This document shows, piece by piece, positions 1,794 through 24,020 of a stretch of 64,000 bases of DNA. Within the stretch, counting starts at the first letter, position 1; each line of letters starts with the position of its first letter. The DNA lies in IMG/VR virus record IMGVR_UViG_3300037067_013676, positions 24,535 through 88,534 of that record. One strand, written 5' to 3'. The position numbers were made by a program, and so were the translations under genes. Origin of the DNA: a virus. Taxonomy: Duplodnaviria > Caudoviricetes. The notes beneath the pieces are model-generated. The model saw only the letters and a list, made by a program, of their open reading frames with translations. It was not told where the DNA came from and searched no databases.

Positions 1794-2571
1794 AAATAGA
1801 AGAATAGAAAAAATTTGCCCAATCTGTTCTCATAGTTTTACATCATATATAAATAGAAATAGAATTTATTGTAATAATAAATGTTATTTTAAGTGGTTAA
1901 AATTACATCCAAATAAAGGCGCAAAGGGGCATACTTATGTTATGAAAGATGAACATAAACTTAAGATTTCAAAAGCATTGAAAGGTAAAAAAAGAATATT
2001 TAATCATAAACCAGACTGCCCATGTTGTATATGTAAAGCTAAAAGAGGTGAAACTAAAGGAAAAAATGCTAATAATTGGAAAGGAGATAAAGCACTAAGA
2101 AGACAAAAATACTATTGTATAGAACCTAACTGTAAAAACGAAATATCTTATGAAAATTTTAAAAACGGTAATAAAAGATGTAAACCATGCTCTAAAAGTG
2201 GAAATAGAAATTCTTTTTTTAATAAAAAACACAGCAAAGAACAAAAAGAAAAGTGGAGTTTAAATCGTAAATTAGAGTTAAATGCTCATTGGTTAAATGG
2301 TAAATCGTTTGAAGTTTATCCTTTAGGTTGGAACAAAACATTTAAAGAACAAATTCGTTATAGAGATGGTTATAAGTGTCAATTATGTGGTAAAAATCAA
2401 TTAGAAAATGGAAGAAAACTTCACGTACATCATATTGATTATGATAAAAAGAACTTAGATGTAAATAATTTGATAAGTTTATGCACAACTTGCCACACCA
2501 AAACCAACTTTAATAGAAAATATTGGAAAGAATATTTTAATAAATTATGGAAAAGGGAAAAGGTAATATAA
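1786..2571 (+). CDS. free-standing HNH homing endonuclease (family A)
   Basis: CQLCG...LHVHHIDYDKKN...NLISLCTTCH; N-terminal Cys-rich and NUMOD3-like modules; GTG at 1786 after GGAG. Confidence 0.85.
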   Translation: MSRNRRIEKICPICSHSFTSYINRNRIYCNNKCYFKWLKLHPNKGAKGHTYVMKDEHKLKISKALKGKKRIFNHKPDCPCCICKAKRGETKGKNANNWKGDKALRRQKYYCIEPNCKNEISYENFKNGNKRCKPCSKSGNRNSFFNKKHSKEQKEKWSLNRKLELNAHWLNGKSFEVYPLGWNKTFKEQIRYRDGYKCQLCGKNQLENGRKLHVHHIDYDKKNLDVNNLISLCTTCHTKTNFNRKYWKEYFNKLWKREKVI

Positions 2572-3203
2572 TTTTAGTTGGGGGTGGTAGTAGTGTTAGT
2601 GATGGTATTAAATTAGGACTGTGGGATAAAATTAAAAATACTAAGTCGGATATATGGTCAATTAATTTTGCATTTTTAACGATTCCATATCAGATTCAAA
2701 GGGAGATTTGGGTGGATATAAGCTTCTTTAAGAACAATATAGAAGCTATTCAGAAACTATATTCACAAGGTGTTTCTTGCCACGCTAAAAAACATCAATT
2801 TTATAGAAATATACCAGAAATCAATCTTTACGAAACTACCAGAAATCCACAAGAAATGGATAAGAAGTTATATATTGGTAGAATGGGGTTAAGTGGATTT
2901 TTTGCATTGCATTTAGCAGTTAAAGAAGAGTCAGATAATATATTTTTGCTTGGTTACGATTTCTCCGCAATAAATGGAAAAACCCATTACTATCAAGATA
3001 CTCATAAAGTTCAATCTACTGGAATAGGGCATCCAGAGTTATATTTGAAAGGTGATAAACCTAAAGACGAAGTGAAAGACTGGGAAAACTTTTGCTCTCC
3101 AGATATAAAATCTAAGATATATAATGTTAGTCCACAGAGTGCTATTGAATGTTTTTCTAAGATTACATATGAAGAGTTCTTTAATAAATTGGAGGAAAAA
3201 TGA
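2547..3203 (+). CDS. Maf/DUF115 (MptE-like) putative glycosyltransferase
   Basis: IILVGGGSS, WSINFAF, GLSGFFALHLA...IFLLGYDFS, NVSPQSAIECF pattern of the DUF115/CstII-like Rossmann fold. Confidence 0.65.
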   Translation: MEKGKGNIILVGGGSSVSDGIKLGLWDKIKNTKSDIWSINFAFLTIPYQIQREIWVDISFFKNNIEAIQKLYSQGVSCHAKKHQFYRNIPEINLYETTRNPQEMDKKLYIGRMGLSGFFALHLAVKEESDNIFLLGYDFSAINGKTHYYQDTHKVQSTGIGHPELYLKGDKPKDEVKDWENFCSPDIKSKIYNVSPQSAIECFSKITYEEFFNKLEEK

Positions 3204-11146: not shown

Positions 11147-12555
11147 TGAAAATTTTATTTGTAATACAACAATTAGATTTTGCTGATCATATAGCAATTT
11201 CATATTTATCAGCAGTAGCTAAAGAATTAGGTCATAATACCTATTTTTGTTCTTTAAGAAGTAACAGTATTGAAAAAATGGTAGATAATATTAAACCAGA
11301 TGTTTTAGCTTATTCTGCTAATATTATGGGATTTGAAGAGTTGGTGGAAGCTAATAAAAAAGCCCAATCTATTCATAAATGTTTTAGTGTTATGGGCGGT
11401 CCACAAGTTACATTTTCTCCAGAAACTTATAAAGAAAGTGGAATAGATGTTTTTGTAATGGGTGAAGGTGAAGGTGCTTTTAGAGATTTATTAGAACGAT
11501 TAAAAGAAGGAAAAAATTATGATGAAGTAGAAAATCTTATTACTCCTAAAGGTATTAATCCTTTGAGAAATTTAATTAGTAATTTAGATGAAATTCCATT
11601 TCCTGATAGAGATTTAGTTTTATCTAATTCTTGGTTAAAGAATATTCCTAAAAAGACATTTTATTCTACTAGAGGATGTTTCTTTAAATGTAATTATTGT
11701 TGTAATGTTAAGTATCATGAACTTTATAAAGATAAAGGACAATTATTTAGACGATTTTCTGTTGAAAGAGTAATTAAAGAAATAGAGTATGTTCAACAAA
11801 GATATAAAATGGATTTTGTTAAAATGGGGGATGATTTATTTGCTATGAAAGCAGATGATTGGTTAATAGAATTTAGTGAAAAATATTCTAAAAGAATAGG
11901 AAAACCTTTTAATTGTTATTTACGTTTTGATAGAATAGATGATGAAGTTTTAAAGTTGCTTAAAAAAGCTGGATGTTATTCTGTTAATTTATCAGTAGAT
12001 AGTTTATCTCAACATGTTAGAGAAAAAGTGTTAAATAGAAGTATGAGAAAAGTAGATATTGAAACTGAATTAAAAAGAATTAATAGATATGATATAAATA
12101 CTTTTGTAAATTTTATGTTAGCCATACCAGAATCTACTTTAGAAGACGATTTAAATACTATAGATGTAGCTAGAAAAGCAAAAATAACTTATGTTAATTA
12201 TACTACTACAGAACCAATGAAAGGAACTAAACTTTATGATTATTGTTTAGAAAAAGGATATATAGATAAAAATACATTTGTAGGAGATATGACTCATATG
12301 TTTCAAAAATCCCCTCTTTCCTGTTTTAGTGAAAAAGAAAAGAATATTAGATATAATATTTATGCTCTTGGTTGTTTAGTATCTAAACTACCTAAATTTT
12401 TACAGGATTTTGGAATGTGGATTATAAAAACCATACCTGCAAATAGATTATTTGGATTTATTAGACAATGTGTATATAACTATCATATAGAAAATAAGAT
12501 TTTTAATTTTTCTAAAAAAGATAAAGAAATAAAAAATGAGAAGCCAGTATCATAA
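11146..12555 (+). CDS. cobalamin-binding radical SAM enzyme
   Basis: VMGGPQVTF, GEGEGA, FPDRDL, TRGCFFKCNYC, GDDLF; start at 11146 from the TAATG overlap. Confidence 0.9.
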   Translation: MKILFVIQQLDFADHIAISYLSAVAKELGHNTYFCSLRSNSIEKMVDNIKPDVLAYSANIMGFEELVEANKKAQSIHKCFSVMGGPQVTFSPETYKESGIDVFVMGEGEGAFRDLLERLKEGKNYDEVENLITPKGINPLRNLISNLDEIPFPDRDLVLSNSWLKNIPKKTFYSTRGCFFKCNYCCNVKYHELYKDKGQLFRRFSVERVIKEIEYVQQRYKMDFVKMGDDLFAMKADDWLIEFSEKYSKRIGKPFNCYLRFDRIDDEVLKLLKKAGCYSVNLSVDSLSQHVREKVLNRSMRKVDIETELKRINRYDINTFVNFMLAIPESTLEDDLNTIDVARKAKITYVNYTTTEPMKGTKLYDYCLEKGYIDKNTFVGDMTHMFQKSPLSCFSEKEKNIRYNIYALGCLVSKLPKFLQDFGMWIIKTIPANRLFGFIRQCVYNYHIENKIFNFSKKDKEIKNEKPVS

Positions 12556-13066
12556 AATAATTAAAGAAAGAATGAATAATTTAGCACTATTGCCTAATTC
12601 TATTTTTATTGGGCAACAGGTCATGGCACCAGAAAATTTTTATGGAACTTTAGTAGATGTTCCAATAGAAAAAAGATTAGAGTTACCAGTTTGTGAAGAG
12701 TTACAGTTAGGTTTAAGTTTAGGTCTATCGTTAAAAGGTTATTTTCCTATTAGTATAATACAGAGATGTGATTTTTTACCAAGATGTTTAGATCAAATTG
12801 TAAATCATTTGAATCTAATGGAAGAATGTTCTCGTAAACGATACGTCCCCCGTATTTTACTTAGAACAACAATAGGAAGTAAAGTTCCATTAAACGTTGG
12901 ACCTCAGCATTCGCAAAATCTTGTGGAATTAATGAAAATAGCTTGTAAATTTCCAGTTTTTTTAGTAGAAACAGTAAAAGAAGTAAATGAAGCATATGAT
13001 TTTGCAATAAAATCAACTAAGTCAACTTTAATTATAGAAAGGCAAGCACTTTATGAAACAATTTAG
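12536..13066 (+). CDS. TPP-dependent E1 beta / transketolase pyrimidine-binding-like subunit (minimal, 176 aa)
   Basis: IFIGQQV, ELPVCEELQLGLSLGLSL.G..PI, LDQIVNH, GPQHSQ. Confidence 0.85.
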   Translation: MRSQYHKIIKERMNNLALLPNSIFIGQQVMAPENFYGTLVDVPIEKRLELPVCEELQLGLSLGLSLKGYFPISIIQRCDFLPRCLDQIVNHLNLMEECSRKRYVPRILLRTTIGSKVPLNVGPQHSQNLVELMKIACKFPVFLVETVKEVNEAYDFAIKSTKSTLIIERQALYETI

Positions 13067-13824: not shown

Positions 13825-14634
13825 ATGGATATACAATTTTCATTAATTTGCCCAAGTATTCGCCCACAGTTTTGGAATGAGATATGTAGTTCTTTGTTAG
13901 ATAATAAGTTAAATTGGGAAATTCTATTTATTGGACCACTAAAACCACTTGAATCTTTACCACCACAAGCAAAATATATATATTCACCAACAAAACCAAG
14001 TCAATGCACACACATAGGATTTATGGAATCCAAAGGAGAATATGTTTCAATTACAGCAGATGATGCGGTTTATTTTTCTCCTAACCATAAAGGTGCTCTA
14101 GATAATATGTATAATTTTATTAAGAATTTTCCTAAAGCAGAAATTCATAAACCTTCAGGCAAACCTTTTTACAATAAAAATAAAATAGCATATGGATTTA
14201 GAATGTTTGAAGACCAATTTTGTGCAGAAACTTCGCATACACATTTTTTAACTAACGATGGTAAATCTCCACAATTATTTCCATTTTTTGTTATTGCTAA
14301 TGGGGTATATCAAGAGTTAGGTGGATATGATAATAGATTTATAACTGGGCAAGCTGAAAATGACTTATTATTCAGAATTTCGGTAGCTTATGGTTCAACA
14401 AAAAATAGTTTGTGCCCAACAGCTATGGTTTGGGCATTACATGATAAACATGGAAATAGTGGAAGTTTTAGGAAATATCATTCACAAGATTTTGGATTAT
14501 TAAAAACCTTATGGATTGCTAATGGTTCAAGTGAGAATTTATTTTCTATAACTAGAAATGATACCAGAATTTTTTCTTATATTAATGACGATACATTGTA
14601 TATAAAAAGCCAAGGTGAGGTTGGAGAGTGGTAG
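13825..14634 (+). CDS. GT2-like glycosyltransferase
   Basis: LICPSIRPQ, GEYVSITADDA, LGGYDNRFITGQAEND. Confidence 0.8.
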   Translation: MDIQFSLICPSIRPQFWNEICSSLLDNKLNWEILFIGPLKPLESLPPQAKYIYSPTKPSQCTHIGFMESKGEYVSITADDAVYFSPNHKGALDNMYNFIKNFPKAEIHKPSGKPFYNKNKIAYGFRMFEDQFCAETSHTHFLTNDGKSPQLFPFFVIANGVYQELGGYDNRFITGQAENDLLFRISVAYGSTKNSLCPTAMVWALHDKHGNSGSFRKYHSQDFGLLKTLWIANGSSENLFSITRNDTRIFSYINDDTLYIKSQGEVGEW

Positions 14635-15362
14635 ATTTAACTAATAAAACTATTTGTGTTCTTTTGCATGGTAGTTCTCTAAATGAGTTGGAATCCAAAA
14701 TAGAAGAATTTAGAAATATAAATGTAGTTTGGTGTGGAATTAACTATTTTAATCCAAGCGAAGAAATACTTAAAAAAATAGACAAATCTTTTAATATAAT
14801 ATTTGATTGTTCTACAGTTCAAAACAATGTTGAATATGAAAAAAAAGCCAGACTACCAAGATTAATAGAATTTTTAGAAAGAAAAAACACTACTTACATC
14901 ACACTTAAATCTGGCAGAGATAATCTTTATGATTTAAGAAATAGAATAGGAAGTGATTTTAATGAAAAATACAAAAATCAAATTGTTTATGGAGAAAATC
15001 TTGGATTTGACTGTAATCAGTTTTGTGTTAGTTTACACTTATACCTTACTTGTTTGCTTAAATTAGGTGCCAAAACCATCATTTTATTTGGGGCTGATGG
15101 TGGTGGTAATCTTGGCAATTCTGTATCTTCTTATTATAAACCAGAACTAATGCAAGAAGATAAAGTAATAGCTGGCAACACAAGTTATAATATGACGGGG
15201 GATACCTGCAATGTAAATAATTCGTTTAATTCTATAATGCAATCTATTTTTGGACAGATTCCTACAATACTTAATTGTAGCCCAAATTCACAATATACTG
15301 TATTTAAAAATGTTAATTTTAACCAAGTATTAAAGGAGATAAAAAATGGTGCCAATTATTAA
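14628..15362 (+). CDS. second Maf/DUF115-like putative glycosyltransferase
   Basis: CVLLHGSSL, WCGINYF, LLKLGAKTIILFGADG, ILNCSPNS; GTG start. Confidence 0.55.
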   Translation: MVDLTNKTICVLLHGSSLNELESKIEEFRNINVVWCGINYFNPSEEILKKIDKSFNIIFDCSTVQNNVEYEKKARLPRLIEFLERKNTTYITLKSGRDNLYDLRNRIGSDFNEKYKNQIVYGENLGFDCNQFCVSLHLYLTCLLKLGAKTIILFGADGGGNLGNSVSSYYKPELMQEDKVIAGNTSYNMTGDTCNVNNSFNSIMQSIFGQIPTILNCSPNSQYTVFKNVNFNQVLKEIKNGANY

Positions 15363-15492
15363 AAAAGAAAAAGATAAAATACTTTGTTTCGAATGTGATG
15401 GCGAAGGAACTATAACTAAAGAAGATGGTTCTATAGTGCCGTGTATAGAATGCAAAGGAACTGGTTATCTGACAATAATTAAAACTAAATAA
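15346..15492 (+). CDS. 48-aa DnaJ-type zinc-finger miniprotein (not in ORF track)
   Basis: SD AAGGAG then MVPIIKKEKDKILCFECDGEGTITKEDGSIVPCIECKGTGYLTIIKTK*; two CxxCxGxG motifs; TAATG overlap with the next gene. Confidence 0.8.
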   Translation: MVPIIKKEKDKILCFECDGEGTITKEDGSIVPCIECKGTGYLTIIKTK

Positions 15493-16838
15493 TGAAAATC
15501 TTATTATGTGTTTTAAGTAATTCTAATTTTATACACTACATACCTCTCGGCGTAGCTTATATCGCTAGTGTTTTAAGAAATAATAGTCACGAAGTTATTA
15601 TTTATTCTCAAGATATTCATCACTATCCAGAAGAACATCTAACCAAATATCTTGATAAAAACAAATTTGATGTAGTTGGCATTGGGGCAATTTCTGGGTA
15701 TTTCCCTTATAGAAAATTATTGAAAGCATCAGAATCTATAAATAAGAGTATAAATAGACCTTTTTTTATTTTAGGTGGTCATATGCCTTCTGCTGACCCA
15801 CAATACTTTTTAAGAAAAACTGGTGCAAACTGTGTAATACGTGGAGAAGCAGAATTATCTTTTGTTGAAATATTAAATATGATTAGTAGAAAAGAAGAAG
15901 TACCTAAAGTAGTGGAAGGAAAATTAGTTAACGATTTAGACTACTTACCATTTCCAGCGTATGATATGTTTCTAATGGAGTATTATAGATTACAAAGGTA
16001 TCCCCACATAGAAAATAATGAGTTTTCAATGTCAATGTTAAGTGGTAGGGGATGCTGGGGAAGATGCGTTTTTTGCCAAAGATTAACACCAAATATCAGA
16101 TTAAGAGGAGTTAATAGTATAGTAGAAGAAATTAAACTACTTAAAAAGAATTATAGTATCTCTTATATAGATTTTGCTGATGACTTAACTTTTGCATCAA
16201 AACAAAGAACTGCCGAATTATGTGAATCATTTATTAAGAATAATTTGAATATAAAATGGAGATGTGAGGGTAGATTAAATTTTATAGATTCAGATATACT
16301 TAAATTAATTAGAAAAGCTGGATGTGTTTTTATTAATTATGGTATAGAATCTTTAGATGATGAAGTATTAAAAAATATGAAGAAAGATTTAACAGTTTCT
16401 CAAATAATAAATGGTGTAGAAGCTACTTTAAAAGAAGGTATTAGCCCAGGACTTAATGTTATTTTCGGCAACATTGGAGATAATAAAGAAACTCTTAAAA
16501 AAGCAGTGGATTTCTTATTAAAATATGATGATGGAGCACAAGTAAGAACAATACATCCTGTCATTCCGTTTCCTGGCACGGAACTATTCGAAACTGCCAA
16601 AGAAAAAGGTTTATTAAAAGATACTGAAGATTTTTATGAACACAAGCACACAAACAGCGATTTGTTGACAGTTAATTTTACAGAATTAACAGATGAAGAA
16701 TTTTATAAAGAATTATATAAAGCTAACTTTCAACTTCTATGTAATTATAATAAAAATAGATTATATGATTATGAAAAACAATTAAAAGAAATATATTTAG
16801 AAAAAAACACTAACTTTCGGGGGTTCGGGCATAAATGA
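15492..16838 (+). CDS. cobalamin-binding radical SAM enzyme
   Basis: PLGVAYIAS, ILGGHMPS, IRGEAE, LPFPAYD, GRGCWGRCVFC, FADD, YGIES, PFPGTEL. Confidence 0.92.
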   Translation: MKILLCVLSNSNFIHYIPLGVAYIASVLRNNSHEVIIYSQDIHHYPEEHLTKYLDKNKFDVVGIGAISGYFPYRKLLKASESINKSINRPFFILGGHMPSADPQYFLRKTGANCVIRGEAELSFVEILNMISRKEEVPKVVEGKLVNDLDYLPFPAYDMFLMEYYRLQRYPHIENNEFSMSMLSGRGCWGRCVFCQRLTPNIRLRGVNSIVEEIKLLKKNYSISYIDFADDLTFASKQRTAELCESFIKNNLNIKWRCEGRLNFIDSDILKLIRKAGCVFINYGIESLDDEVLKNMKKDLTVSQIINGVEATLKEGISPGLNVIFGNIGDNKETLKKAVDFLLKYDDGAQVRTIHPVIPFPGTELFETAKEKGLLKDTEDFYEHKHTNSDLLTVNFTELTDEEFYKELYKANFQLLCNYNKNRLYDYEKQLKEIYLEKNTNFRGFGHK

Positions 16839-17689
16839 ACTGTTCAAATTGTGGTGAAAGTCTGCATAAATCAAAAGTAATAGCTAAACAAAATGATATT
16901 AGATTTAATTGCTACAATACTAAAAAAAGAATAGTTCAATGTTCTAAATGCGAATTAGTTCAACTTATTCCACAGTGGTCAGATAAAGAGTTAGATAAAA
17001 TTTACACTACATATAATCAAAAACCTGATTTTATAGGGCAAAAAAATATATCTAAAAGAATAAGTAAATGGATTAAAAAATACTTAGTAAAGGTGGGGCA
17101 AAATTTGGAAGTTGGATGTGGCAATGGTGATACTGTAAAATATTTTAAAACTAAAATGTATAATATAATGGGCATAGATAAAGATAAATCTGTAGAAAAA
17201 TGTTATGAGGGAATATATAATTATGATATTTACGATAAAAAATTTGATAAAGACTTGTATCATGCTAAATTTTATTTTATCTATGGATTACATATATTAG
17301 AACATATGAAAAACCCGATAAAATTTATTGAAAGATTAAAAGAATTGTTATTCTCCGAAGGAACTATACTATTAGAATTTCCAAATTTGGAAGATCCATT
17401 ACTAACCATATATAAATCAAAAGAGTTTGAAAAGTTTTATTATAGACCAGACCATCATTTCTTCTACACACCAAAAACAATAATGGATTTATTGTATAGA
17501 AATAAAGTAGTTAACTGTCAAATAAAAAGAACTCAAACTTATAGTATAGTAAACCATTTAAATTGGTTAATTAGAAAAAAACCAACCAATCTTAAAATAA
17601 ATTTACCTATAATTGATTTTCTATATAAGTGGTGTTTAGTTCATATATTTAAAAAATCTGATACAATACTCTTAATAATTAAAAAATGA
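16835..17689 (+). CDS. class I SAM-dependent methyltransferase with N-terminal Zn ribbon
   Basis: CSNC...CSKC, LEVGCGNG, HILEHMKNP, H.FFYT. Confidence 0.88.
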   Translation: MNCSNCGESLHKSKVIAKQNDIRFNCYNTKKRIVQCSKCELVQLIPQWSDKELDKIYTTYNQKPDFIGQKNISKRISKWIKKYLVKVGQNLEVGCGNGDTVKYFKTKMYNIMGIDKDKSVEKCYEGIYNYDIYDKKFDKDLYHAKFYFIYGLHILEHMKNPIKFIERLKELLFSEGTILLEFPNLEDPLLTIYKSKEFEKFYYRPDHHFFYTPKTIMDLLYRNKVVNCQIKRTQTYSIVNHLNWLIRKKPTNLKINLPIIDFLYKWCLVHIFKKSDTILLIIKK

Positions 17690-18468
17690 GAAAAAAATAT
17701 AAATGTATAGAAAAAGATTGTAAAAATGAAGTTTCTGGCAAAAATAGAAGATGCAGACATCACGCACTAATATTGAGACATAAGTTAACAAATTTTGCTT
17801 TAAAACATGGCAGATATTCCAAAAATTTTAAACCAATTTACTATTGTATAGATGGATGTGGAGCAAAAGTAAGTGAAGAAGGAAATAGATGTTATTCTTG
17901 TTCTAAACTTGGTAACAAAAATCCTCAATTTATAGATGGCAGAACAAATAAAGTATATTATTGTTTAGTAAAAGGATGTAATACTATTGTAAAATCATAT
18001 GGGAAAAAATGTAGGCATCATGCTCAATCAGGGAGAAAAGTTTCAGATAAAACTAAGAAAAAACAAAGTATATCTATGAAAAAAGCTGGTTTTACTCATA
18101 ATAAAGAAATTTGTTCTTGTTTTATTTGCAAAGCTTATAGAGGTGAAACTAAAGGTGAAAACGCAAGCAATTGGATGGATGGAAGAAGTTTTGAAGACTA
18201 TCCAAAAGAATTTAATGCAGAACTTAGAGATAAAATAAGAAAACGTGATGATTATATTTGTCAAAATTGTGGTATGACAGAAGAAGAACATATAATAGTT
18301 TTGGGTTATAATTTGACTATTCATCATATAGATTATAATAAAAATAATAATAAAGAAAGTAATTTAATTACTACCTGTAGTAGTTGTAATTGTAGAGCCA
18401 ATTATAATAGAAATTATTGGAAAGAATATTATCAAAAGAAAATGGAGAAAAAATGCATACAACAATAA
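17686..18468 (+). CDS. free-standing HNH homing endonuclease (family A)
   Basis: RDDYICQNCG...LTIHHIDYNK...NLITTCSSCN; Cys-rich N-terminal repeats. Confidence 0.85.
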   Translation: MRKKYKCIEKDCKNEVSGKNRRCRHHALILRHKLTNFALKHGRYSKNFKPIYYCIDGCGAKVSEEGNRCYSCSKLGNKNPQFIDGRTNKVYYCLVKGCNTIVKSYGKKCRHHAQSGRKVSDKTKKKQSISMKKAGFTHNKEICSCFICKAYRGETKGENASNWMDGRSFEDYPKEFNAELRDKIRKRDDYICQNCGMTEEEHIIVLGYNLTIHHIDYNKNNNKESNLITTCSSCNCRANYNRNYWKEYYQKKMEKKCIQQ

Positions 18469-19292
18469 TTGCAGAAGCAGGTATAAATCATCTTGGGAGT
18501 ATAGATTTATGCATGCAGTTAATTGATGGAGCTGTTTTTGGTGGAGCAGATATTTTTAAATTACAAAAAAGAGATATTAATTCTACTTATACTAAAGAAG
18601 AGTTGAATAAATATAGAGAATCTCCCTTTGGATTGTTGAATCGTGATTTAAAAAAACAATTAGAATTTAATGAAAAAGAATATGATATTATTAAAAAATA
18701 CTGCGATTCTAAAAATATTGAATTAATGGTTTCGGCTTGGGACTTGGCAAGTCAAAATTTTCTCAAAAAATATAATTGCAAGTATAACAAAGTAGCTTCT
18801 GCTAGATTAGGTCATAAAAAACTATTGGAAGAAATAGCCAAAGAAGGTAAATATACGTTCATTTCTACTGGTATGGCAACGATTGACGAAATTGGGGAAG
18901 CTATAAAAATATTTAATAATTTCGGATGCCCATTTGAGTTAATGGCTTGTAATAGTAGCTATCCTTGCCCAGATGAAGATTTGAATTTATTAACTATTAA
19001 AACTTTAAGAGATACTTTTGGGTGTAAAGTTGGGTTCAGTAGTCATTCGCCTGGGATTATTCCTTGTGTATTAGCTGTGGCTTTAGGTGCTACTTCTATA
19101 GAAGCCCATCTGACGACGAATAGAACTCTTTATGGTAGTGACCAAGCTTCTTCAATTGAAATTCACGGATTTAAAAGAATGGTTGATTATGTAAGGGATG
19201 CTGAACTGCAATTGGGCGATGGTATTAAAGTAATAACTGAAACAGAGAAAAAGATAAGAGAAAAACTCTACAGGACTGAAGATATACAATGA
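18453..19292 (+). CDS. neuB: N-acetylneuraminate/nonulosonate synthase family (NeuB/SpsE), lacking C-terminal SAF domain
   Basis: IIAEAGINHLG, GADIFKLQ, YNKVASA, ISTGM, CNSSYP, VGFSSH, IEAHLT; ATG 18453 after GGAG; 279 aa. Confidence 0.9.
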   Translation: MHTTIIAEAGINHLGSIDLCMQLIDGAVFGGADIFKLQKRDINSTYTKEELNKYRESPFGLLNRDLKKQLEFNEKEYDIIKKYCDSKNIELMVSAWDLASQNFLKKYNCKYNKVASARLGHKKLLEEIAKEGKYTFISTGMATIDEIGEAIKIFNNFGCPFELMACNSSYPCPDEDLNLLTIKTLRDTFGCKVGFSSHSPGIIPCVLAVALGATSIEAHLTTNRTLYGSDQASSIEIHGFKRMVDYVRDAELQLGDGIKVITETEKKIREKLYRTEDIQ

Positions 19293-19957
19293 ATGATAAA
19301 ATAGTGATTTGTGGAGCCAGGGGTGGTAGTTCGAGGGTTCTCAACAAAAATATTAGAAAATTAGGAGAAATTCCTCTTATTGAGTATTCTCTATTTACTG
19401 GTGAATTATTAGGATTACCTATTTATGTTTCTTCCGATTCCGATAAAATACTCAAAATTGTAAAAACTCATGGATCTTTAGTAAACATTATTAAAAGACC
19501 TAGTATATTAGCTTCAAATACATCAACTGATATAGATTGGATAAAACATTTATTAAGTATTTATTATGAGCAAAATAGTTCTTATCCTAAACAATTAATA
19601 TTTTTAAGACCAACTACCCCACTTAGGGAAATTTCTATAGTTAAAGAAGCAATTAAAAAATTTAACGGTTCAAAATATACTTCATTAAGAAGTGTAGAAG
19701 AACTAAAAGAAAGTATCTATAAAACATATTTTATAAAAAACTGTATTCTTGAACCATTTAACAAAGATAATAGTAATGTGGCGAACCAAACCTTGCCAAT
19801 TTCCTATGGTGCAAACGGATATATAGATATACTACTTACAGAGCAAATATTAAACTCAAATGATATATATGGTGATAAAATAATGCCATTTATAACTCCA
19901 AGAACAATAGAAATAGATGATGAATTTGATTTTAAACTTGCGGAGAAATTAATATGA
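19289..19957 (+). CDS. neuA: acylneuraminate (CMP-nonulosonate) cytidylyltransferase
   Basis: ARGGSSRVLNKNI, VSSDSD, LRPTTPLR, NGYI, IEIDDEFDF. Confidence 0.9.
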   Translation: MNDKIVICGARGGSSRVLNKNIRKLGEIPLIEYSLFTGELLGLPIYVSSDSDKILKIVKTHGSLVNIIKRPSILASNTSTDIDWIKHLLSIYYEQNSSYPKQLIFLRPTTPLREISIVKEAIKKFNGSKYTSLRSVEELKESIYKTYFIKNCILEPFNKDNSNVANQTLPISYGANGYIDILLTEQILNSNDIYGDKIMPFITPRTIEIDDEFDFKLAEKLI

Positions 19958-21189
19958 AATATGCTAAAGTAGTAACTAAACTACCTCACAAAGCAGATTT
20001 AAAGCTTCTCAGCGATATTAACAAGTATGAAGCTAATAGTATGCAAGGACAAATACCTCTTATCTGGGATAGTGCTAAAGGGTTTTTAGTAAAAGATAGA
20101 CACGGTAATCAATTTTTGGATTTTACATCTGGAATAGCTGTTGCAAACTGTGGTCATGGTAATAATGATATAATGAATGCTATAAGAAGCAAAATAAATA
20201 GACCTTTAGTACATTCTTATACATTTGGAACTGAAATACGATATAAATTCTTAAAAGAATTAGTAGATATATATTACCCAAAAGGAAAAGCATTTTTAGT
20301 AAGTGCCGGAACTGAAGCTACTGAAGTTGCTGTAAAATTAATGCGTAGATATGGTATATCTCATAAAAAAGAAATGATAGGAATAGTGTCTTTTAAAGGA
20401 GCAATGCATGGAAGAACATCTATATCTGAAAATTTAAAGGGAGATAGTTTTCAGACTTCAAAAGATGGGTGGGCTAATAGAGATAATTCCATACTAAACA
20501 TTAATCCTCCTTTTGATAGTGAAAAATTTAACTATAAACATATTCCCGATATTAAAAATATTTGTGGGATTATTATAGAAAGTTATCAAGGTTGGTCTGC
20601 TAGATTTTATAATAAGAAATATATGCAGGATTTAGTAAAATATTGTAAAGAAAATAATATTTTAGTTTGTTTTGATGAAATACAGGGAGGATTTGGAAGA
20701 ACTGGTAAAATGTGGGCTTGGGAACATTACAATATACCACAACCAGATTTAATATGTTTTGGTAAAGGTGTTAGTTCAAGTGTTCCTTTATCTGGAGTGT
20801 TAGGTAGAAAAGATATACTAGATATACTAGAAGTAGGCGGCATGTCATCTACCCATTCAGCAAATCCTATTAGTTGTGCCGCTGGATTGTCTAATTTACA
20901 ATATCTTAAAAAATACAATTTAATAAAAAATTCAAGAATACTTGGTAAAAAAATGATAGATTTTCTTAGAGGTTTGGGTTTAGAAATCAATGGTAATGGG
21001 TTGTTGTGTGCAATTATTACTAAAACTGACGAAGAAGCTGATAGAATAGTTATAGAATGCTTTAAGAAAGGTTTATTACTAATAAGAACACATAAGAACT
21101 CAATTAAGCTCGCACCACCGTTAATTTTAACAGAGGATGCTCTCTTTGAAGGACTAAATATCATAAAAGAGGTTATTAAATCACAATGA
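19954..21189 (+). CDS. class III PLP-dependent aminotransferase
   Basis: FLDFTSGIAV, GTEATE, GAMHGRT, FDEIQGGFGRTG, DLICFGKG (PLP Lys), STHSANP, LAPPL. Confidence 0.92.
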   Translation: MKYAKVVTKLPHKADLKLLSDINKYEANSMQGQIPLIWDSAKGFLVKDRHGNQFLDFTSGIAVANCGHGNNDIMNAIRSKINRPLVHSYTFGTEIRYKFLKELVDIYYPKGKAFLVSAGTEATEVAVKLMRRYGISHKKEMIGIVSFKGAMHGRTSISENLKGDSFQTSKDGWANRDNSILNINPPFDSEKFNYKHIPDIKNICGIIIESYQGWSARFYNKKYMQDLVKYCKENNILVCFDEIQGGFGRTGKMWAWEHYNIPQPDLICFGKGVSSSVPLSGVLGRKDILDILEVGGMSSTHSANPISCAAGLSNLQYLKKYNLIKNSRILGKKMIDFLRGLGLEINGNGLLCAIITKTDEEADRIVIECFKKGLLLIRTHKNSIKLAPPLILTEDALFEGLNIIKEVIKSQ

Positions 21190-21590
21190 GTATATGTAAT
21201 ATTAGACACGTGTGTTTGTGTGTGAGTAATCTACAAAAAGCCGACTACTTTTATAGAAAAGTATTAGGTTTACATTATGTAAATAGTGAAGTAGAAGAAG
21301 GGGATTTCATTAAATCTCTTTTAGGATTAGATTCTCTAACTTGGGTCAAACTGGCTACTGATAGTGGAGATATATTAGAATTATATTGGTTGCCCACAAA
21401 AACCAATGATTCTTTTAATCATATAGCGTTTACTGTAGAAAATGTGCAATATATGAGAAATAAACTAAAAGAGTTTGAAATTGAGTGTTCCGAAATTAAA
21501 TTAGACAAAAGTGGAACTCATAAAGTAATGTTTTGTAGAGACCCCGAAAAAAATATGTTAGAAATTGTTGAGGAGATTAAAAATGTATAA
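21186..21590 (+). CDS. VOC/glyoxalase family protein
   Basis: IRHVCLCVSNL...FY..VLGL, ILELY, NHIAFTVEN, FCRDPE.N.LEIVE. Confidence 0.88.
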   Translation: MSICNIRHVCLCVSNLQKADYFYRKVLGLHYVNSEVEEGDFIKSLLGLDSLTWVKLATDSGDILELYWLPTKTNDSFNHIAFTVENVQYMRNKLKEFEIECSEIKLDKSGTHKVMFCRDPEKNMLEIVEEIKNV

Positions 21591-22386
21591 TTTAGCGGGT
21601 TTAAGTGTAGCATCGGTTGAACTTTCGAGTTTTTGTAATAAGGTTCCAGGGTGCTTCATGTGTGGGAGACGCAAGCTTGAAAAAGAACATCCAGAACTTT
21701 GCCAATGGGGAAATATGGATATTGGATTAGTAGATTTAATTGCAAAACAACTACCTTCAAATATTATAGTGAGTCTCCATGGAAATGGGGATCCTTTGTG
21801 CTATCCTAGGCTAAAAGAAGCACTACATAGATTTAAGCGTCAAATAAGAGTATTTAATACAAATGCAGTGGCTTTATTAGAAAAAGCAGATATTATAATA
21901 AATAACCTTGAATCTTTAACTATTTCAGTAATAGAAAACGATACTTTAGGAGATAAACAGTATGAAGATGTTAAAAAGTTTTTAGAAATAAAAGGTAACA
22001 AAAAACCAATTATGACTTATAGATTACTTGGAAATGTAGAAAATGCCAAAAGATGGTATGAATTACCAGGCAAAGTAGCTACAAGAATACTACACAATCC
22101 ACTGGGCAGTTTTGACTACACTAAAAAAGTAACGTTGCCTGAACACCAAATTTGTATGGACATGTTAACCCATTGTTTTATAGATAGATACGGCGATTTT
22201 TACCCTTGTATTCGGTACAATCCTTATAAAATAAACAAACTCGGTAATATTAAAGAAAATACTTTAGAAGAGTTGTGGAATAGCCCCAAAAGACTAAATC
22301 TACTTAAAGAACATGTAAAAGGAAACCGCAATTGTAGTAAACTTTGTAGTAAATGTGATTTTTATGGGATCCCACGTGGAGATTAA
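21583..22386 (+). CDS. radical SAM/SPASM protein with CX5CX2C motif
   Basis: VELSSFCNKVPGCFMC, LHGNGDPL, FNTNA; CMDML...GDFYPC...GNIKENTLEELWNS...CSKLCSKC. Confidence 0.82.
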   Translation: MYNLAGLSVASVELSSFCNKVPGCFMCGRRKLEKEHPELCQWGNMDIGLVDLIAKQLPSNIIVSLHGNGDPLCYPRLKEALHRFKRQIRVFNTNAVALLEKADIIINNLESLTISVIENDTLGDKQYEDVKKFLEIKGNKKPIMTYRLLGNVENAKRWYELPGKVATRILHNPLGSFDYTKKVTLPEHQICMDMLTHCFIDRYGDFYPCIRYNPYKINKLGNIKENTLEELWNSPKRLNLLKEHVKGNRNCSKLCSKCDFYGIPRGD

Positions 22387-22555
22387 CTATTGTGATTTAA
22401 GTTGTAAATATGCTTCTTTTCCAGATAAGTTATGTGATGGAAGTATGACTTGTAGGACTTTTGTAGGTATATTTTGTAAGAAAGATAAGAAGATTGTTTA
22501 TAAGAATGCTAAATGTAGTAAATTTAAGCCTAGGAGCCTCAAAATTGAAAGATAG
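22376..22555 (+). CDS. small Cys-rich hypothetical protein
   Basis: Likely GTG at 22376; six Cys in 59 aa. Confidence 0.55.
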   Translation: MEINYCDLSCKYASFPDKLCDGSMTCRTFVGIFCKKDKKIVYKNAKCSKFKPRSLKIER

Positions 22556-22658
22556 TATAAAAAGAGTAGATTTACCCACTCTACTTAAAATAATCAAACA
22601 CAGGGTATCACAAACGCAAATTTACCCTATTTGTGAGACTACATGGGAGACAATATGA
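22545..22658 (+). CDS. 37-aa hypothetical protein (not in ORF track)
   Basis: AGGAG at 22532-22536, TTG 8 nt later; MKDSIKRVDLPTLLKIIKHRVSQTQIYPICETTWETI*; ATGA overlap with the next gene. Confidence 0.6.
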   Translation: MKDSIKRVDLPTLLKIIKHRVSQTQIYPICETTWETI

Positions 22659-23404
22659 GTAATAATTGTAAATTTTCACTTTCAGCTTCAGCTATACGAC
22701 CTCAAATTTGGCAACAGTTGTTAGATTCTTTAAGAAGTAATGATTTGAAATATGAAGTAGTTTTGGCTGGAAATGTTAGACCACAATTTGATATATCTAA
22801 ATATCCAGAATTAAAATACATATATTCACCAACAAAGCCGAGTCAGTGTTATCAGATATGTTTTAATGAAAGTGTTGGTGAGTTAGTATCTTGGGGAAGT
22901 GATGACTCCACCTACCCACCTAACGCTTTAGATGAAATGTATGAGTTTTTTAAGTCTTTTAACAATAGAAAATTGGTGGCGGCGTTTAGAACTGTTGAGG
23001 ATGGTAGAGATATTACTGAATGGCATAGATTGAGGGGGCGAGATCCAAATGCTCCAAGAATGGCTCCCTTTGGAGTAATGGATAGGGAGTTTTTTAATGA
23101 ACTGGGTGGATACGATCGTAGATTTATTTGTGGGCAATCTGAAAATGATGTAGTAATGAGAGTGTATGAAGCTGGCGGGGAACTACAAATATCTAAAGTT
23201 CCAGTAATAGTAAATCATCAAAAAGCTCATGATAGCAGTGGAACTGTGTTTAGAAGTGGATATTTCCATGAAGATCGTAGGGTATTAGAATCGGCATGGT
23301 TTAATCCAGATAAAACTATTTCTAATAAACGATTAGTTCCTTTTGAATCTTTTGATAAAACTGATATTTTAACAAAAACTCAATCGCAACGTGGGAAGTG
23401 GTAA
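22655..23404 (+). CDS. GT2-like glycosyltransferase (paralogue of 13825..14634)
   Basis: SASAIRPQ, YIYSPTKPSQC, SWGSDDS, LGGYDRRFICGQSEND. Confidence 0.8.
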   Translation: MSNNCKFSLSASAIRPQIWQQLLDSLRSNDLKYEVVLAGNVRPQFDISKYPELKYIYSPTKPSQCYQICFNESVGELVSWGSDDSTYPPNALDEMYEFFKSFNNRKLVAAFRTVEDGRDITEWHRLRGRDPNAPRMAPFGVMDREFFNELGGYDRRFICGQSENDVVMRVYEAGGELQISKVPVIVNHQKAHDSSGTVFRSGYFHEDRRVLESAWFNPDKTISNKRLVPFESFDKTDILTKTQSQRGKW

Positions 23405-23405
23405 A

Positions 23406-24020
23406 ATGAAACCTTGGATTGTCAGTTGTTTTTATACCGCCCAAACGCCCTACAGAGACATTTTATATTCACAGTTAATCCCAAGTCTTGATAAATTAAA
23501 TATTAAATATAACATAGAAGAAATAGAAAATAAAGGTTCGTGGTTAAAAAATGTTGCCCAAAAACCTCTAACTATACTTCATACTTTAGAAAAGTATCCA
23601 GAATATAATTGCGTGTCAATTGATTCTGATGCGGAAGTGTTAAGTTATCCTAAAATATTTGATGAAATTGGAGAAGAATTTGATATAGGTTTACATGAGT
23701 TAGACTGGGATAGTTGGTATCAAAATAACTCGCATGTTAAAGAAATATTGAGTGGTACTGGTTGGTTTAACAATACTCAAAAAGTAAAAGATTTAGTTAA
23801 AGAGTGGTATGATAGAGCCATAAAAGACTATAAATGGGAGCAAAAGGTGCTTTCGGGTCTGATTTTAGAAAAAAAAGATATTAAAATATTTGAATTGCCA
23901 ATTGAATATGTATGGTTAGAATCACTTCCAGATGGTTCTCCACCAAAAATAAAAGGAACTCCAATCATTCTTCACAAACAAGCATCTCGCCAAATGAAAC
24001 GTAAAATTAGATTATTATAA
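23406..24020 (+). CDS. GT-A nucleotide-diphospho-sugar transferase
   Basis: SCFYT..TPY, GSW.KNVAQKP, SIDSDAE (DxD), SGT.WF, WEQK, ILHKQAS. Confidence 0.72.
   Translation: MKPWIVSCFYTAQTPYRDILYSQLIPSLDKLNIKYNIEEIENKGSWLKNVAQKPLTILHTLEKYPEYNCVSIDSDAEVLSYPKIFDEIGEEFDIGLHELDWDSWYQNNSHVKEILSGTGWFNNTQKVKDLVKEWYDRAIKDYKWEQKVLSGLILEKKDIKIFELPIEYVWLESLPDGSPPKIKGTPIILHKQASRQMKRKIRLL

What the first reader, a model, noticed from the sequence alone, without database searches (positions are those of the whole stretch)
18453..22386. Non-canonical nonulosonate module: short NeuB, NeuA, class III aminotransferase, VOC, SPASM radical SAM
NeuB is 279 aa and lacks the C-terminal SAF domain. No NeuC, NeuD or PseB/LegB-type dehydratase appears, and the aminotransferase is class III rather than the DegT type of the Pse/Leg pathways. 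Known: BtrN-type radical SAM dehydrogenases oxidise a sugar hydroxyl, which a PLP enzyme then aminates. Inference: host hexose or hexosamine is condensed with PEP, CMP-activated and then amino-modified, giving a possibly new ulosonic acid.
Basis: partly seen in the sequence, partly recalled or inferred. Interest (0 to 1): 0.75.

Follow-up and report, generated by a model that had tools for sequence, protein, structure and literature searches.

The report
Phage radical-SAM amino-ulosonic acid cassette
A phage carries a tightly coupled operon, shared with many uncultured bacteria, archaea and other phages but apparently never studied, that most likely builds a CMP-activated, aminated and methylated sialic-acid-like sugar by oxygen-sensitive radical chemistry, and it encodes its own sialyltransferase-like enzymes to attach that sugar.

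Summary
At 18453-22386, five translationally coupled genes encode:
- a 279-aa NeuB-type synthase without a SAF domain;
- a NeuA-type cytidylyltransferase;
- a class III aminotransferase;
- a VOC protein;
- a small radical SAM enzyme.

The 88.5-kb phage contig has no NeuC, DegT, NAD-dependent dehydratase, acetyltransferase, isomerase or phosphatase.

Corrections:
- The "SPASM" enzyme has one auxiliary cluster and is a BtrN/SpeY-like Twitch dehydrogenase. BtrN is its best match by sequence profile and by fold.
- The module starts at 15492, with a B12 radical SAM gene and a methyltransferase. The HNH gene at 17686-18468 is an insertion.

The cassette is not unique. SAF-less NeuB forms a large clade (133 viral contigs, 541 species genomes), separate from SAF-bearing paralogs in the same loci. 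The aminotransferase and VOC genes travel together, a link that survives a phylogenetic control, and always with NeuA. The aminotransferase carries Lys where ornithine and acetylornithine aminotransferases carry a conserved Arg.

Two sialyltransferase-like genes lie in the same block.

Best reading: a CMP-ulosonic acid that is oxidised, aminated and methylated. The sugar's identity, the step order and the acceptor are inferred. I found no publication on it. This scan noted the same cassette earlier on other DNA.

The parts
15492..16838 (+). B12-binding (class B) radical SAM enzyme; probable C-methylase or other radical tailoring enzyme of the module
   Evidence: Pfam B12-binding E 2.6e-16 and Radical_SAM E 6.4e-19. 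It scores below every NCBIfam equivalog cut-off. Homologs at 49-57% identity lie beside short NeuB in phage and cellular loci. Raw co-occurrence with the Twitch radical SAM gene has odds ratio 11.7, which is not significant in the phylogenetic test.
16835..17689 (+). Class I SAM-dependent methyltransferase
   Evidence: Methyltransf_23 E 4.5e-13. It overlaps the B12 radical SAM gene by 4 nt. In L002 it lies directly upstream of NeuB.
17686..18468 (+). HNH homing-endonuclease gene inserted between the methyltransferase and NeuB; not part of the pathway
   Evidence: HNH E 7.2e-6. It is absent from this position in L002, where its homolog lies between the E1-alpha and E1-beta genes.
18453..19292 (+). 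SAF-less NeuB-type PEP:aldose condensing synthase (279 aa)
   Evidence: PF03102 E 2.3e-63. NeuB model 227 bits against a 399.65 cut-off; PseI model 171 bits against 340.25. Catalytic and metal residues align with N. meningitidis NeuB: E8, K36, K113, H198, E217, H219, D230. The best solved relative is 6ncs, a 290-aa chain. In the tree it falls in the short clade, apart from SAF-bearing paralogs.
19289..19957 (+). NeuA-type cytidylyltransferase (CMP activation of the ulosonic acid)
   Evidence: CTP_transf_3 E 5.9e-10. PseF model 79.7 bits against a 205.7 cut-off. The only PDB relatives are CMP-Neu5Ac synthetases: 6ifd E 1.4e-18 and 1eyr E 7.7e-10. A homolog lies beside short NeuB in 102 of 134 dereplicated loci.
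19954..21189 (+). Cassette-specific class III (omega-type) aminotransferase
   Evidence: Aminotran_3 E 2.5e-73. It scores below all 69 matching NCBIfam cut-offs. The PLP Lys is K271. K385 replaces the Arg of the R..PPL motif of AcOAT and OAT; this position is Lys in 91% of 47 cassette homologs. In related loci it always occurs with NeuA (42/42) and with VOC in 35/42.
21186..21590 (+). VOC (glyoxalase-fold) metalloprotein; proposed isomerase or epimerase partner of the aminotransferase
   Evidence: Glyoxalase E 1.2e-11. H8, E65, H79 and E126 are conserved in at least 85% of 46 homologs. It co-occurs with the aminotransferase at odds ratio 52, p 1e-17. Independent pairs: 12.2 in the same direction against 0, p 0.0005. 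It never occurs with the class IV aminotransferase.
21583..22386 (+). Twitch-type radical SAM enzyme related to BtrN and SpeY (proposed sugar hydroxyl dehydrogenase)
   Evidence: Invariant C18, C24 and C27 form the radical SAM motif, which is CX5CX2C here and CX3CX2C in most homologs. Four further invariant Cys are C191, C209, C255 and C258. AF2 model pLDDT 91.8. Top Foldseek PDB hits are BtrN 4m7t (E 2.4e-11), then SpeY 7wzv. Profile against PDB: BtrN E 1.2e-16 over both the core and the auxiliary-cluster region.
14628..15362 (+). CstII/Maf-like (GT42 / MptE-like fold) candidate CMP-ulosonate transferase
   Evidence: No Pfam or PHROG hit. AF2 model pLDDT 94.4. The ten best Foldseek PDB hits are all C. 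jejuni CstII sialyltransferase (E 3.7e-5, TM about 0.5), followed by Cst-I, ST8SiaIII and Maf. The ESM Atlas neighbours are viral clusters of which 17-25% carry PF01973.
2547..3203 (+). Second sialyltransferase-like protein in the same co-directional block
   Evidence: phrog_4603 'alpha-2,3-sialyltransferase', E 1.3e-12.
22643..24020 (+). Two weakly GT-A-like genes that close the block, next to the convergent tail genes
   Evidence: Weak Glycos_transf_2 (E 0.0048) and Nucleotid_trans (E 0.0046) hits. Both genes are conserved in L002 at 65% and 55% identity.

Best explanation
The genes from 15492 to 22386 are the phage's copy of a widespread, modular and so far uncharacterised pathway for a CMP-activated, tailored 3-deoxy-2-ulosonic (sialic-acid-like) sugar.

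Proposed steps:
1. The SAF-less NeuB condenses phosphoenolpyruvate with an aldose or aldose phosphate from the host. The phage encodes no enzyme that could make that aldose.
2. The NeuA-like enzyme forms the CMP-sugar.
3. The BtrN-like Twitch radical SAM enzyme oxidises one hydroxyl to a carbonyl.
4. The cassette-specific class III aminotransferase converts the carbonyl to an amine. Its constant partner, the VOC metalloprotein, probably isomerises or epimerises the keto intermediate.
5. The B12 radical SAM enzyme and the SAM methyltransferase add methyl groups.
6. The two CstII/Maf-like transferases and the GT-A enzymes of the same block then build the sugar into a glycan. The acceptor could be a virion protein or the infected cell's surface.

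Shown: gene identities, operon structure, conservation, the aminotransferase-VOC-NeuA linkage, the BtrN relationship, and the absence of the Neu, Leg and Pse precursor enzymes.

Inferred: the substrate, the order of steps, the position aminated, the role of VOC, and the acceptor.
For: - Domains and catalytic residues.
- Gene overlaps of 4-16 nt from the B12 radical SAM gene to the Twitch enzyme.
- The whole order B12rSAM-MT-NeuB-NeuA-AT3-VOC-Twitch-GT-GT is kept in phage L002 at 55-77% identity. The NeuB-NeuA-AT3-VOC(-Twitch) order recurs in Omnitrophota, Planctomycetota, Methanoperedens, SAR86, Thiobacillus and other genomes.
- Short NeuB occurs in 133 viral contigs and 541 species genomes. 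It forms a clade apart from nine SAF-bearing paralogs found in the same loci, one of which passes the NeuB equivalog cut-off.
- AT3-VOC odds ratio 52; AT3 with NeuA in 42/42 loci. The AT3-VOC link survives independent contrasts, p 0.0005.
- 56 of 61 loci with a class III or IV aminotransferase carry the Twitch enzyme or an SDR.
- BtrN is the best profile hit (E 1.2e-16) and the best fold hit, followed by the SpeY dehydrogenase. From established knowledge, BtrN oxidises a secondary alcohol of 2-deoxy-scyllo-inosamine to a ketone that a PLP aminotransferase then aminates.
- Sialyltransferase-like proteins in the block.
- No NeuC, DegT, dehydratase, acetyltransferase, SIS, cupin or HAD gene in the contig.
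Against: - No enzyme was assayed. Nothing fixes the carbon number of the sugar or the position of the amine.
- The aminotransferase's closest characterised relatives act on terminal amines and aldehydes of amino acids, so it could act on something other than the sugar.
- The Twitch versus SDR/xylose-isomerase-like exclusion and the Twitch-B12 association are not significant once relatedness is controlled.
- BtrN-like folds also occur in peptide-modifying and other radical SAM enzymes among the lower hits.
- The contig is about 81% complete, so precursor genes could lie on the missing part.
- Some 'viral' contigs used for context may be misclassified cellular DNA.
Confidence: 0.6

Rival explanations
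1. The aminotransferase works upstream of NeuB. It deaminates a primary amine to an aldehyde, which NeuB then condenses with PEP. The product would be a non-carbohydrate 2-keto-3-deoxy acid rather than a tailored sugar.
For: The enzyme belongs to the omega-aminotransferase group, whose members interconvert terminal amines and aldehydes. The phage encodes no aldose-forming enzyme. A missing SAF domain could mean a smaller substrate.
Against: Two thirds of short-NeuB loci have no class III aminotransferase (92 of 134), so the synthase does not depend on it. The aminotransferase tracks NeuA (42/42) and an oxidoreductase (37/42 with Twitch or SDR). Many sister loci carry sugar-phosphate isomerases and KdsC-like phosphatases. 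Sialyltransferase-like enzymes are present.
Confidence: 0.1
2. The pathway makes an ordinary known sugar, Kdn or Neu5Ac, from host mannose or ManNAc. The aminotransferase, VOC and radical SAM genes serve unrelated metabolism.
For: NeuB and NeuA alone suffice for CMP-Kdn or CMP-Neu5Ac. Sister loci with an isomerase and a HAD phosphatase resemble the Kdn-9-P route.
Against: All genes overlap in one operon. The AT3-VOC-NeuA linkage recurs across phyla and phages. The aminotransferase has the Arg-to-Lys change and scores below every equivalog cut-off. NeuB scores below the NeuB equivalog cut-off and lacks the SAF domain. That domain supplies substrate-binding residues in N. meningitidis NeuB and is required in Caulobacter NeuB (PMC7591256).
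Confidence: 0.07
3. The sugar decorates the phage's DNA (base hypermodification) rather than a protein or polysaccharide.
For: The block begins next to thyX, and the contig encodes a dCMP deaminase, DNA methylases and a class II RNR. Phage glycosyltransferases that hypermodify DNA are known (10.1101/2023.12.21.572611; PMC13326640).
Against: Pfam scans covered the genes at window 114-24020 and the ten largest genes of the first 24.5 kb of the contig. They found no dCMP or dUMP hydroxymethylase, TET/5mYOX enzyme or hydroxymethyl-base kinase. Those two papers do not mention NeuB, sialic or nonulosonic acids, or radical SAM. The candidate transferases resemble CstII and Maf, whose known acceptors are glycans and proteins.
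Confidence: 0.07

Closest known systems
Kdn pathway via Kdn-9-phosphate (B. thetaiotaomicron BT1714 synthase, BT1713 HAD phosphatase, BT1715 CMP-Kdn synthetase; Prymnesium parvum enzymes, PMC6200933)
   Same: A NeuB-family synthase plus a NeuA-family cytidylyltransferase, with no NeuC, dehydratase or DegT precursor steps. Sister loci of the same short-NeuB clade carry a sugar-phosphate isomerase (SIS or cupin) and a KdsC-like HAD phosphatase.
   Different: This phage has neither an isomerase nor a phosphatase. It adds a radical SAM dehydrogenase-like enzyme, a class III aminotransferase, a VOC protein, a B12 radical SAM enzyme and a methyltransferase. I could not test whether BT1714 belongs to the short clade: no sequence was available and the paper is not held.
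Canonical bacterial nonulosonic acid pathways (Neu5Ac: NeuC/NeuB/NeuA; pseudaminic acid: PseB,C,H,G,I,F; legionaminic acid: LegB,C,H,G,I,F)
   Same: PEP condensation by a NeuB-fold TIM barrel with the same catalytic residues. CMP activation by a CTP_transf_3 enzyme whose only solved relatives are CMP-Neu5Ac synthetases. Transfer by CstII/Maf-like enzymes.
   Different: No SAF domain. The contig has no NeuC, PseB/LegB, DegT-type aminotransferase or acetyltransferase. Amino groups would be introduced by a class III enzyme after radical oxidation, not on a nucleotide-hexose 4-keto intermediate.
BtrN (butirosin) and SpeY (spectinomycin) Twitch radical SAM dehydrogenases with their partner aminotransferases
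   Same: Similar size. A radical SAM Cys triad plus one auxiliary cluster region whose Cys align. BtrN is the best sequence-profile hit and the best fold hit. An aminotransferase is encoded alongside.
   Different: The context is a CMP-ulosonic acid operon rather than an aminocyclitol pathway. The partner aminotransferase is class III or class IV rather than DegT-type. The radical SAM loop is lengthened to CX5CX2C in this phage.
Kdo8N formation in Shewanella (KdnB oxidase plus KdnA aminotransferase; from my own knowledge, Gattis et al. 2013, papers not held)
   Same: An ulosonic acid hydroxyl is oxidised and then transaminated to give an amino-ulosonic acid.
   Different: The oxidase there is an iron-type alcohol dehydrogenase homolog, and the sugar is the eight-carbon Kdo made by KdsA. 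There is no NeuB, radical SAM or VOC component.

Membership tests
NeuB / sialic acid synthase family | NeuB TIM-barrel domain with the PEP, metal and catalytic residues | tested here: met
   PF03102 E 2.3e-63 over the full model. E8, K36, K113, H198, E217, H219 and D230 align with the N. meningitidis NeuB residues.
NeuB / sialic acid synthase family | C-terminal SAF (antifreeze-like) domain that completes the neighbouring subunit's active site | tested here: not met
   The protein ends at residue 279 with no SAF hit. No SAF domain occurs anywhere in the contig.
N-acetylneuraminate synthase (TIGR03569) and pseudaminic acid synthase (TIGR03586) equivalogs | Score above NCBIfam's curated cut-off | tested here: not met
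   227.3 bits against 399.65, and 171.5 bits against 340.25. A SAF-bearing paralog in locus L104 scores 508.5 bits.
Neu5Ac, legionaminic and pseudaminic acid pathways | Precursor enzymes: NeuC-type epimerase, PseB/LegB-type dehydratase, DegT-type aminotransferase, N-acetyltransferase | tested here: not met
   No Epimerase_2, DegT, Epimerase or Hexapep match in the 88.5-kb contig. The contig is about 81% complete.
Kdn-9-phosphate route | HAD (KdsC-like) phosphatase and an aldose-phosphate-forming isomerase next to the synthase | tested here: not met
   No Hydrolase_3, SIS_2 or Cupin_2 match in the contig. These genes are present in 27, 34 and 27 of 134 related loci.
Kdn-9-phosphate route | Synthase orthologous to BT1714, specific for mannose 6-phosphate | not testable with these tools
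   No BT1714 sequence could be fetched, and the describing paper is not held. Substrate specificity needs an assay.
CMP-nonulosonate synthetases (CTP_transf_3) | Cytidylyltransferase fold with the N-terminal GxRGGS..KN nucleotide motif | tested here: met
   CTP_transf_3 E 5.9e-10. The motif GARGGSSRVLNKN is present. PDB hits are CMP-Neu5Ac synthetases only. It scores below the PseF equivalog cut-off, 79.7 bits against 205.7.
BtrN-type Twitch radical SAM dehydrogenases | Radical SAM Cys triad plus a single auxiliary [4Fe-4S] site in a short C-terminal domain | tested here: met
   Invariant C18/C24/C27 and C191/C209/C255/C258 in 26 homologs. The BtrN alignment covers the core and the auxiliary region, with Cys aligned.
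BtrN-type Twitch radical SAM dehydrogenases | Overall fold closest to BtrN/SpeY | tested here: met
   Foldseek rank 1-2 is BtrN (E 2.4e-11, TM 0.59/0.64). Ranks 3, 4, 7 and 10 are SpeY.
BtrN-type Twitch radical SAM dehydrogenases | Oxidation of a substrate hydroxyl to a carbonyl | not testable with these tools
   This needs anaerobic reconstitution.
SPASM radical SAM enzymes (two auxiliary clusters) | Seven or eight conserved C-terminal Cys | tested here: not met
   Only four C-terminal Cys are invariant. The Pfam SPASM model still matches (E 1e-11).
Acetylornithine, ornithine and GABA aminotransferases (class III) | Class III fold with the PLP lysine | tested here: met
   Aminotran_3 E 2.5e-73. 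K271 aligns with the catalytic Lys.
Acetylornithine, ornithine and GABA aminotransferases (class III) | Equivalog score and the conserved Arg of the R..PPL motif | tested here: not met
   It scores below every NCBIfam cut-off. K385 aligns with this Arg in 2eh6, 2ord and 3ruy. The position is Lys in 91% of 47 cassette homologs.
VOC metalloenzymes | Paired beta-alpha-beta-beta-beta modules with His/Glu metal ligands | tested here: met
   Glyoxalase E 1.2e-11. H8, E65, H79 and E126 are conserved. Their role as ligands is inferred from position. The closest solved structure is E. coli glyoxalase I, E 9.3e-5.
GT42 / Maf-like sialyltransferases (for 14628-15362) | CstII-like fold | tested here: met
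   The top ten Foldseek hits are all CstII. There is no sequence-level Pfam hit, so family membership by sequence is not shown.

The most novel reading that the evidence does not exclude
The cassette makes a structurally new ulosonic acid, aminated at a position reached only by radical oxidation and carrying C-methyl groups added by a cobalamin radical SAM enzyme. In effect it applies aminoglycoside-type radical tailoring to a sialic-acid-like sugar. The phage would use its own CstII/Maf-like transferases to put this sugar on its virion, or on the infected cell's surface, in an anoxic, B12-replete host.
Probability: 0.35. Interest if true: 0.8.

Novelty: new variant of a known kind. Interest (0 to 1): 0.62.

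Why it matters
Sialic-acid-like sugars govern recognition at microbial surfaces. Their known biosynthesis follows a few textbook routes. This cassette would add a route that is widespread in uncultured bacteria, archaea and more than a hundred viral contigs. In it the amino group is installed after radical or NAD-dependent oxidation by a non-DegT aminotransferase, with cobalamin-dependent methylation.

Carried by a phage next to its own sialyltransferase-like genes, it raises two possibilities: phages may decorate their particles, or they may remodel the host envelope, with an acidic sugar of their own making. Either would bear on host range, superinfection exclusion and particle stability.

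The five-gene core is small enough for direct reconstitution.

Tried and rejected
I took genomic context from the search for related loci and my own ORF clustering instead.
- A single-sequence scan of viral contigs with the window's NeuB found nothing. The alignment-based scan worked.
- blastn of the module against GenBank phages found no match. tblastn gave only three distant hits.
- Literature searches found no paper that combines N-acetylneuraminate synthase, cytidylyltransferase, glyoxalase, radical SAM and aminotransferase, or radical SAM with nonulosonic acid gene clusters. Kdo8N papers and the BT1714 paper are not held, so I could not check whether BT1714 is a SAF-less form.
- The two phage DNA-glycosylation papers do not mention this chemistry.
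- An earlier idea was that the radical SAM enzyme replaces the phosphatase of sister operons. The raw odds ratio is 0.11, but the exclusion is stronger against SDR and xylose-isomerase-like genes, and none of these exclusions is significant in the independent-pairs test. I therefore treat 'Twitch enzyme as the oxygen-sensitive alternative to an SDR' as a lead only.
- I sent no complex prediction, because I do not claim that any two proteins bind.
- PHROG annotation of the large minus-strand structural genes was mostly empty. The tail module is therefore identified mainly by the tape-measure match.

Full report
**What is there.** The window is bases 24535-88534 of an 88.5-kb IMG/VR phage contig, about 30% G+C and estimated 81% complete. 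The contig encodes a family B DNA polymerase with an intein, a Prim-Pol helicase, RecA, a B12-dependent class II ribonucleotide reductase, a dCMP deaminase, ThyX and a tail tape-measure protein.

From about 2.5 kb to 24 kb of the window, one co-directional block holds glycosyltransferase-like genes, five radical SAM genes, a split TPP E1-like pair, and the finding itself.

- NeuB, 18453-19292: PF03102 E 2.3e-63.
- A CTP_transf_3 cytidylyltransferase, 19289-19957.
- A class III aminotransferase, 19954-21189: E 2.5e-73.
- A VOC protein, 21186-21590.
- A radical SAM protein, 21583-22386, matched by the SPASM model.

All neighbours from 15492 to 22386 overlap by 4-16 nt.

**The stated absences.** NeuB stops after the TIM barrel. 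Six-frame searches of the whole contig found no SAF domain, NeuC-type epimerase, DegT aminotransferase, NAD-dependent epimerase/dehydratase, hexapeptide acetyltransferase, HAD phosphatase, SIS isomerase or cupin. About a fifth of the genome may be missing, so this is not absolute.

**NeuB.** The protein keeps the residues that bind PEP and metal and stabilise the intermediate in N. meningitidis NeuB. It scores far below NCBIfam's cut-offs for N-acetylneuraminate synthase and pseudaminic acid synthase.

The SAF domain matters. In N. meningitidis NeuB it reaches into the partner subunit's active site, and an Arg in it is required in Caulobacter NeuB (PMC7591256). A SAF-less enzyme must therefore hold its sugar differently.

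The short form is not a truncation peculiar to this phage:
- The 120 best database relatives are all 275-303 aa, and those outside the closest phage relatives (54-66% identical) include proteins named from at least five different bacterial and archaeal phyla.
- An alignment-based scan found it on 133 viral contigs and in 541 species genomes.
- The best solved relative, 6ncs, is a 290-aa chain.
- In a FastTree of 171 sequences, the short forms sit apart from nine SAF-bearing paralogs encoded in the same loci. One of those paralogs passes the NeuB equivalog cut-off.

The short NeuB is thus a separate paralog with its own job. The window's copy groups with phages L002 (77% identity) and L003.

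**The cassette.** I called ORFs within 8 kb of short NeuB in 158 loci, clustered them, and annotated the cluster representatives. I then dereplicated to 134 loci at 90% NeuB identity. The numbers of loci carrying each neighbour are:

| Neighbour | Loci (of 134) |
|---|---|
| NeuA | 102 |
| SDR | 70 |
| Xylose-isomerase-like TIM barrel | 49 |
| GDP-mannose-dehydratase-like | 49 |
| VOC | 43 |
| Class III aminotransferase | 42 |
| DegT | 41 |
| GmhA-like SIS isomerase | 34 |
| Twitch radical SAM | 29 |
| Mannose-6-P-isomerase-like cupin | 27 |
| KdsC-like HAD phosphatase | 27 |
| B12 radical SAM | 26 |
| Class IV aminotransferase | 19 |

Linkages:
- The class III aminotransferase always comes with NeuA (42/42) and nearly always with VOC (35/42; odds ratio 52, p 1e-17). 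It never comes with the class IV aminotransferase.
- The Twitch enzyme never co-occurs with the xylose-isomerase-like gene (0/29), rarely with an SDR (4/29), and often with a B12 radical SAM gene (16/29).
- Of 61 loci with a class III or IV aminotransferase, 56 have either the Twitch enzyme or an SDR, and only one has both.

Related loci share gene content by descent, so I repeated the tests with phylogenetically independent pairs on the NeuB tree:
- The aminotransferase-VOC link survives clearly: 12.2 pairs in the same direction against 0, median p 0.0005.
- The exclusions go in the expected direction but lack power: Twitch versus xylose-isomerase-like 0 against 3.9, p 0.125; Twitch versus SDR 1.1 against 4.2; class III versus class IV 0 against 5, p 0.06.
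- The accessory genes change state 21-33 times on the tree, so the cassette is modular and mobile.

The order NeuB-NeuA-AT3-VOC(-Twitch) recurs in Omnitrophota, Planctomycetota, Methanoperedens, SAR86, Thiobacillus and other genomes, and in many phages.

**Boundaries.** In L002 the order B12rSAM-MT-NeuB-NeuA-AT3-VOC-Twitch-GT-GT is conserved at 55-77% identity, with the methyltransferase abutting NeuB. The window's HNH gene (17686-18468) is therefore an inserted homing endonuclease. L002 carries its homolog between the two E1 genes instead. The functional module is 15492-22386.

**The radical SAM enzyme.**
- Twenty-six homologs share three N-terminal Cys. The motif is CX3CX2C in most, lengthened to CX5CX2C here and to CX10CX2C in one other phage.
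- They share exactly four more invariant Cys, which is enough for one auxiliary cluster.
- A profile of these sequences finds BtrN as by far the best solved relative (E 1.2e-16; the next is NifB at 3.6e-8). The alignment covers both the core and the auxiliary-cluster region.
- A confident AlphaFold model (pLDDT 91.8) has BtrN as its first Foldseek hit (E 2.4e-11). The Twitch dehydrogenase SpeY follows.

**The aminotransferase.**
- Its nearest characterised relatives are acetylornithine, ornithine and GABA aminotransferases, but it scores below every equivalog cut-off.
- K385 occupies the position of the Arg in the R..PPL motif of acetylornithine and ornithine aminotransferases. From my own knowledge, that Arg binds the alpha-carboxylate of glutamate or 2-oxoglutarate.
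- Lys is found there in 91% of 47 cassette homologs.

Together with the operon structure and the linkage to NeuA and VOC, this argues against a housekeeping role.

**VOC.** It keeps a His/Glu/His/Glu set. Its chemistry is unknown. VOC enzymes such as glyoxalase I and methylmalonyl-CoA epimerase move protons next to carbonyls. By that analogy I propose that it isomerises or epimerises the keto intermediate. This is the weakest step of the model.

**Use of the product.**
- The gene at 2547-3203 matches a PHROG annotated as alpha-2,3-sialyltransferase (E 1.3e-12).
- The gene at 14628-15362 has no sequence-level family. Its model (pLDDT 94.4) has C. jejuni CstII as all ten best PDB matches, followed by Cst-I, ST8SiaIII and Maf.

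So donor synthesis and candidate transferases are encoded together, next to the tail genes. Whether the acceptor is a virion protein, a host surface polymer or, less likely, DNA is open. The Pfam scans of the block and of the ten largest genes of the first 24.5 kb found no hydroxymethylase, TET-like enzyme or base kinase.

**Comparison with known systems.** The backbone logic is that of CMP-ulosonic acid pathways. Sister loci with an isomerase and a phosphatase resemble the Kdn-9-phosphate route (PMC6200933). I could not test whether B. thetaiotaomicron BT1714 is a member of the short clade.

The tailoring logic, radical oxidation followed by transamination plus cobalamin-dependent methylation, is that of aminoglycoside pathways. 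From my own knowledge, the oxidise-then-aminate sequence on an ulosonic acid has one precedent, Kdo8N, which uses unrelated enzymes. I found no paper linking radical SAM enzymes to nonulosonic acid clusters.

This scan's earlier notes record the same cassette on other DNA, both phage and cellular. I treated them as leads and tested the Maf-like claim, the module extent and the 'replaces a phosphatase' idea myself.

**Verdict.** It is best filed as a new variant of a known kind: an uncharacterised, modular branch of CMP-ulosonic acid biosynthesis, here in its radical SAM version and carried by a phage. The substrate, product structure, step order and acceptor remain inferences.

Noticed in passing
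window 17686-18468 and 1771-2571; L002:2669: HNH homing-endonuclease genes sit at different places in the glycan block of the two related phages. In the window one lies between the methyltransferase and NeuB. In L002 the homolog lies between the E1-alpha and E1-beta genes. A second HNH/NUMOD3 gene follows thyX.
   Followed up: partly
window 10568-13066 versus L002:1765-5400: The small TPP E1-alpha-like and E1-beta-like genes are separated by a B12 radical SAM gene in the window but by an HNH gene in L002, so the gene order differs. E1 pairs also lie within 8 kb of short NeuB in about nine other viral loci.
   Followed up: no
window 21634-21663 (Cys motif of the Twitch radical SAM enzyme): The loop between the first two cluster Cys varies in length among homologs: CX3CX2C in most, CX5CX2C here and in three other phage loci, and CX10CX2C in L048. 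All three Cys stay invariant.
   Followed up: partly
window 7642-9900; contig 16602-19694 (L162): A LAGLIDADG-type intein interrupts a radical SAM gene of the glycan block. Another intein interrupts the family B DNA polymerase.
   Followed up: no
contig 20364-22280 (L163:2364-4280) and window 11122-12555, 15492-16838: The phage encodes a B12-dependent class II ribonucleotide reductase and at least two B12-binding radical SAM enzymes, five radical SAM genes in all. This points to an anoxic, cobalamin-replete host.
   Followed up: no
loci L012, L026, L029, L035, L104, L150, L153, L156, L158: These loci carry a SAF-bearing NeuB-family paralog a few kb from the short NeuB. Two ulosonic acid synthases therefore often coexist in one locus.
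   Followed up: partly
related loci: The GmhA-like SIS isomerase and the mannose-6-P-isomerase-like cupin almost never co-occur next to short NeuB: 1 locus against 34 and 27, odds ratio 0.09. The cupin is almost confined to viral loci. They may be alternative suppliers of the aldose phosphate.
   Followed up: partly
window 22355-22555: A 66-aa GTG-start ORF overlaps the end of the Twitch radical SAM gene by 32 nt and fills most of the only gap in the block. It was not searched against Pfam and had no tblastn match in the related loci, and may not be a gene.
   Followed up: no
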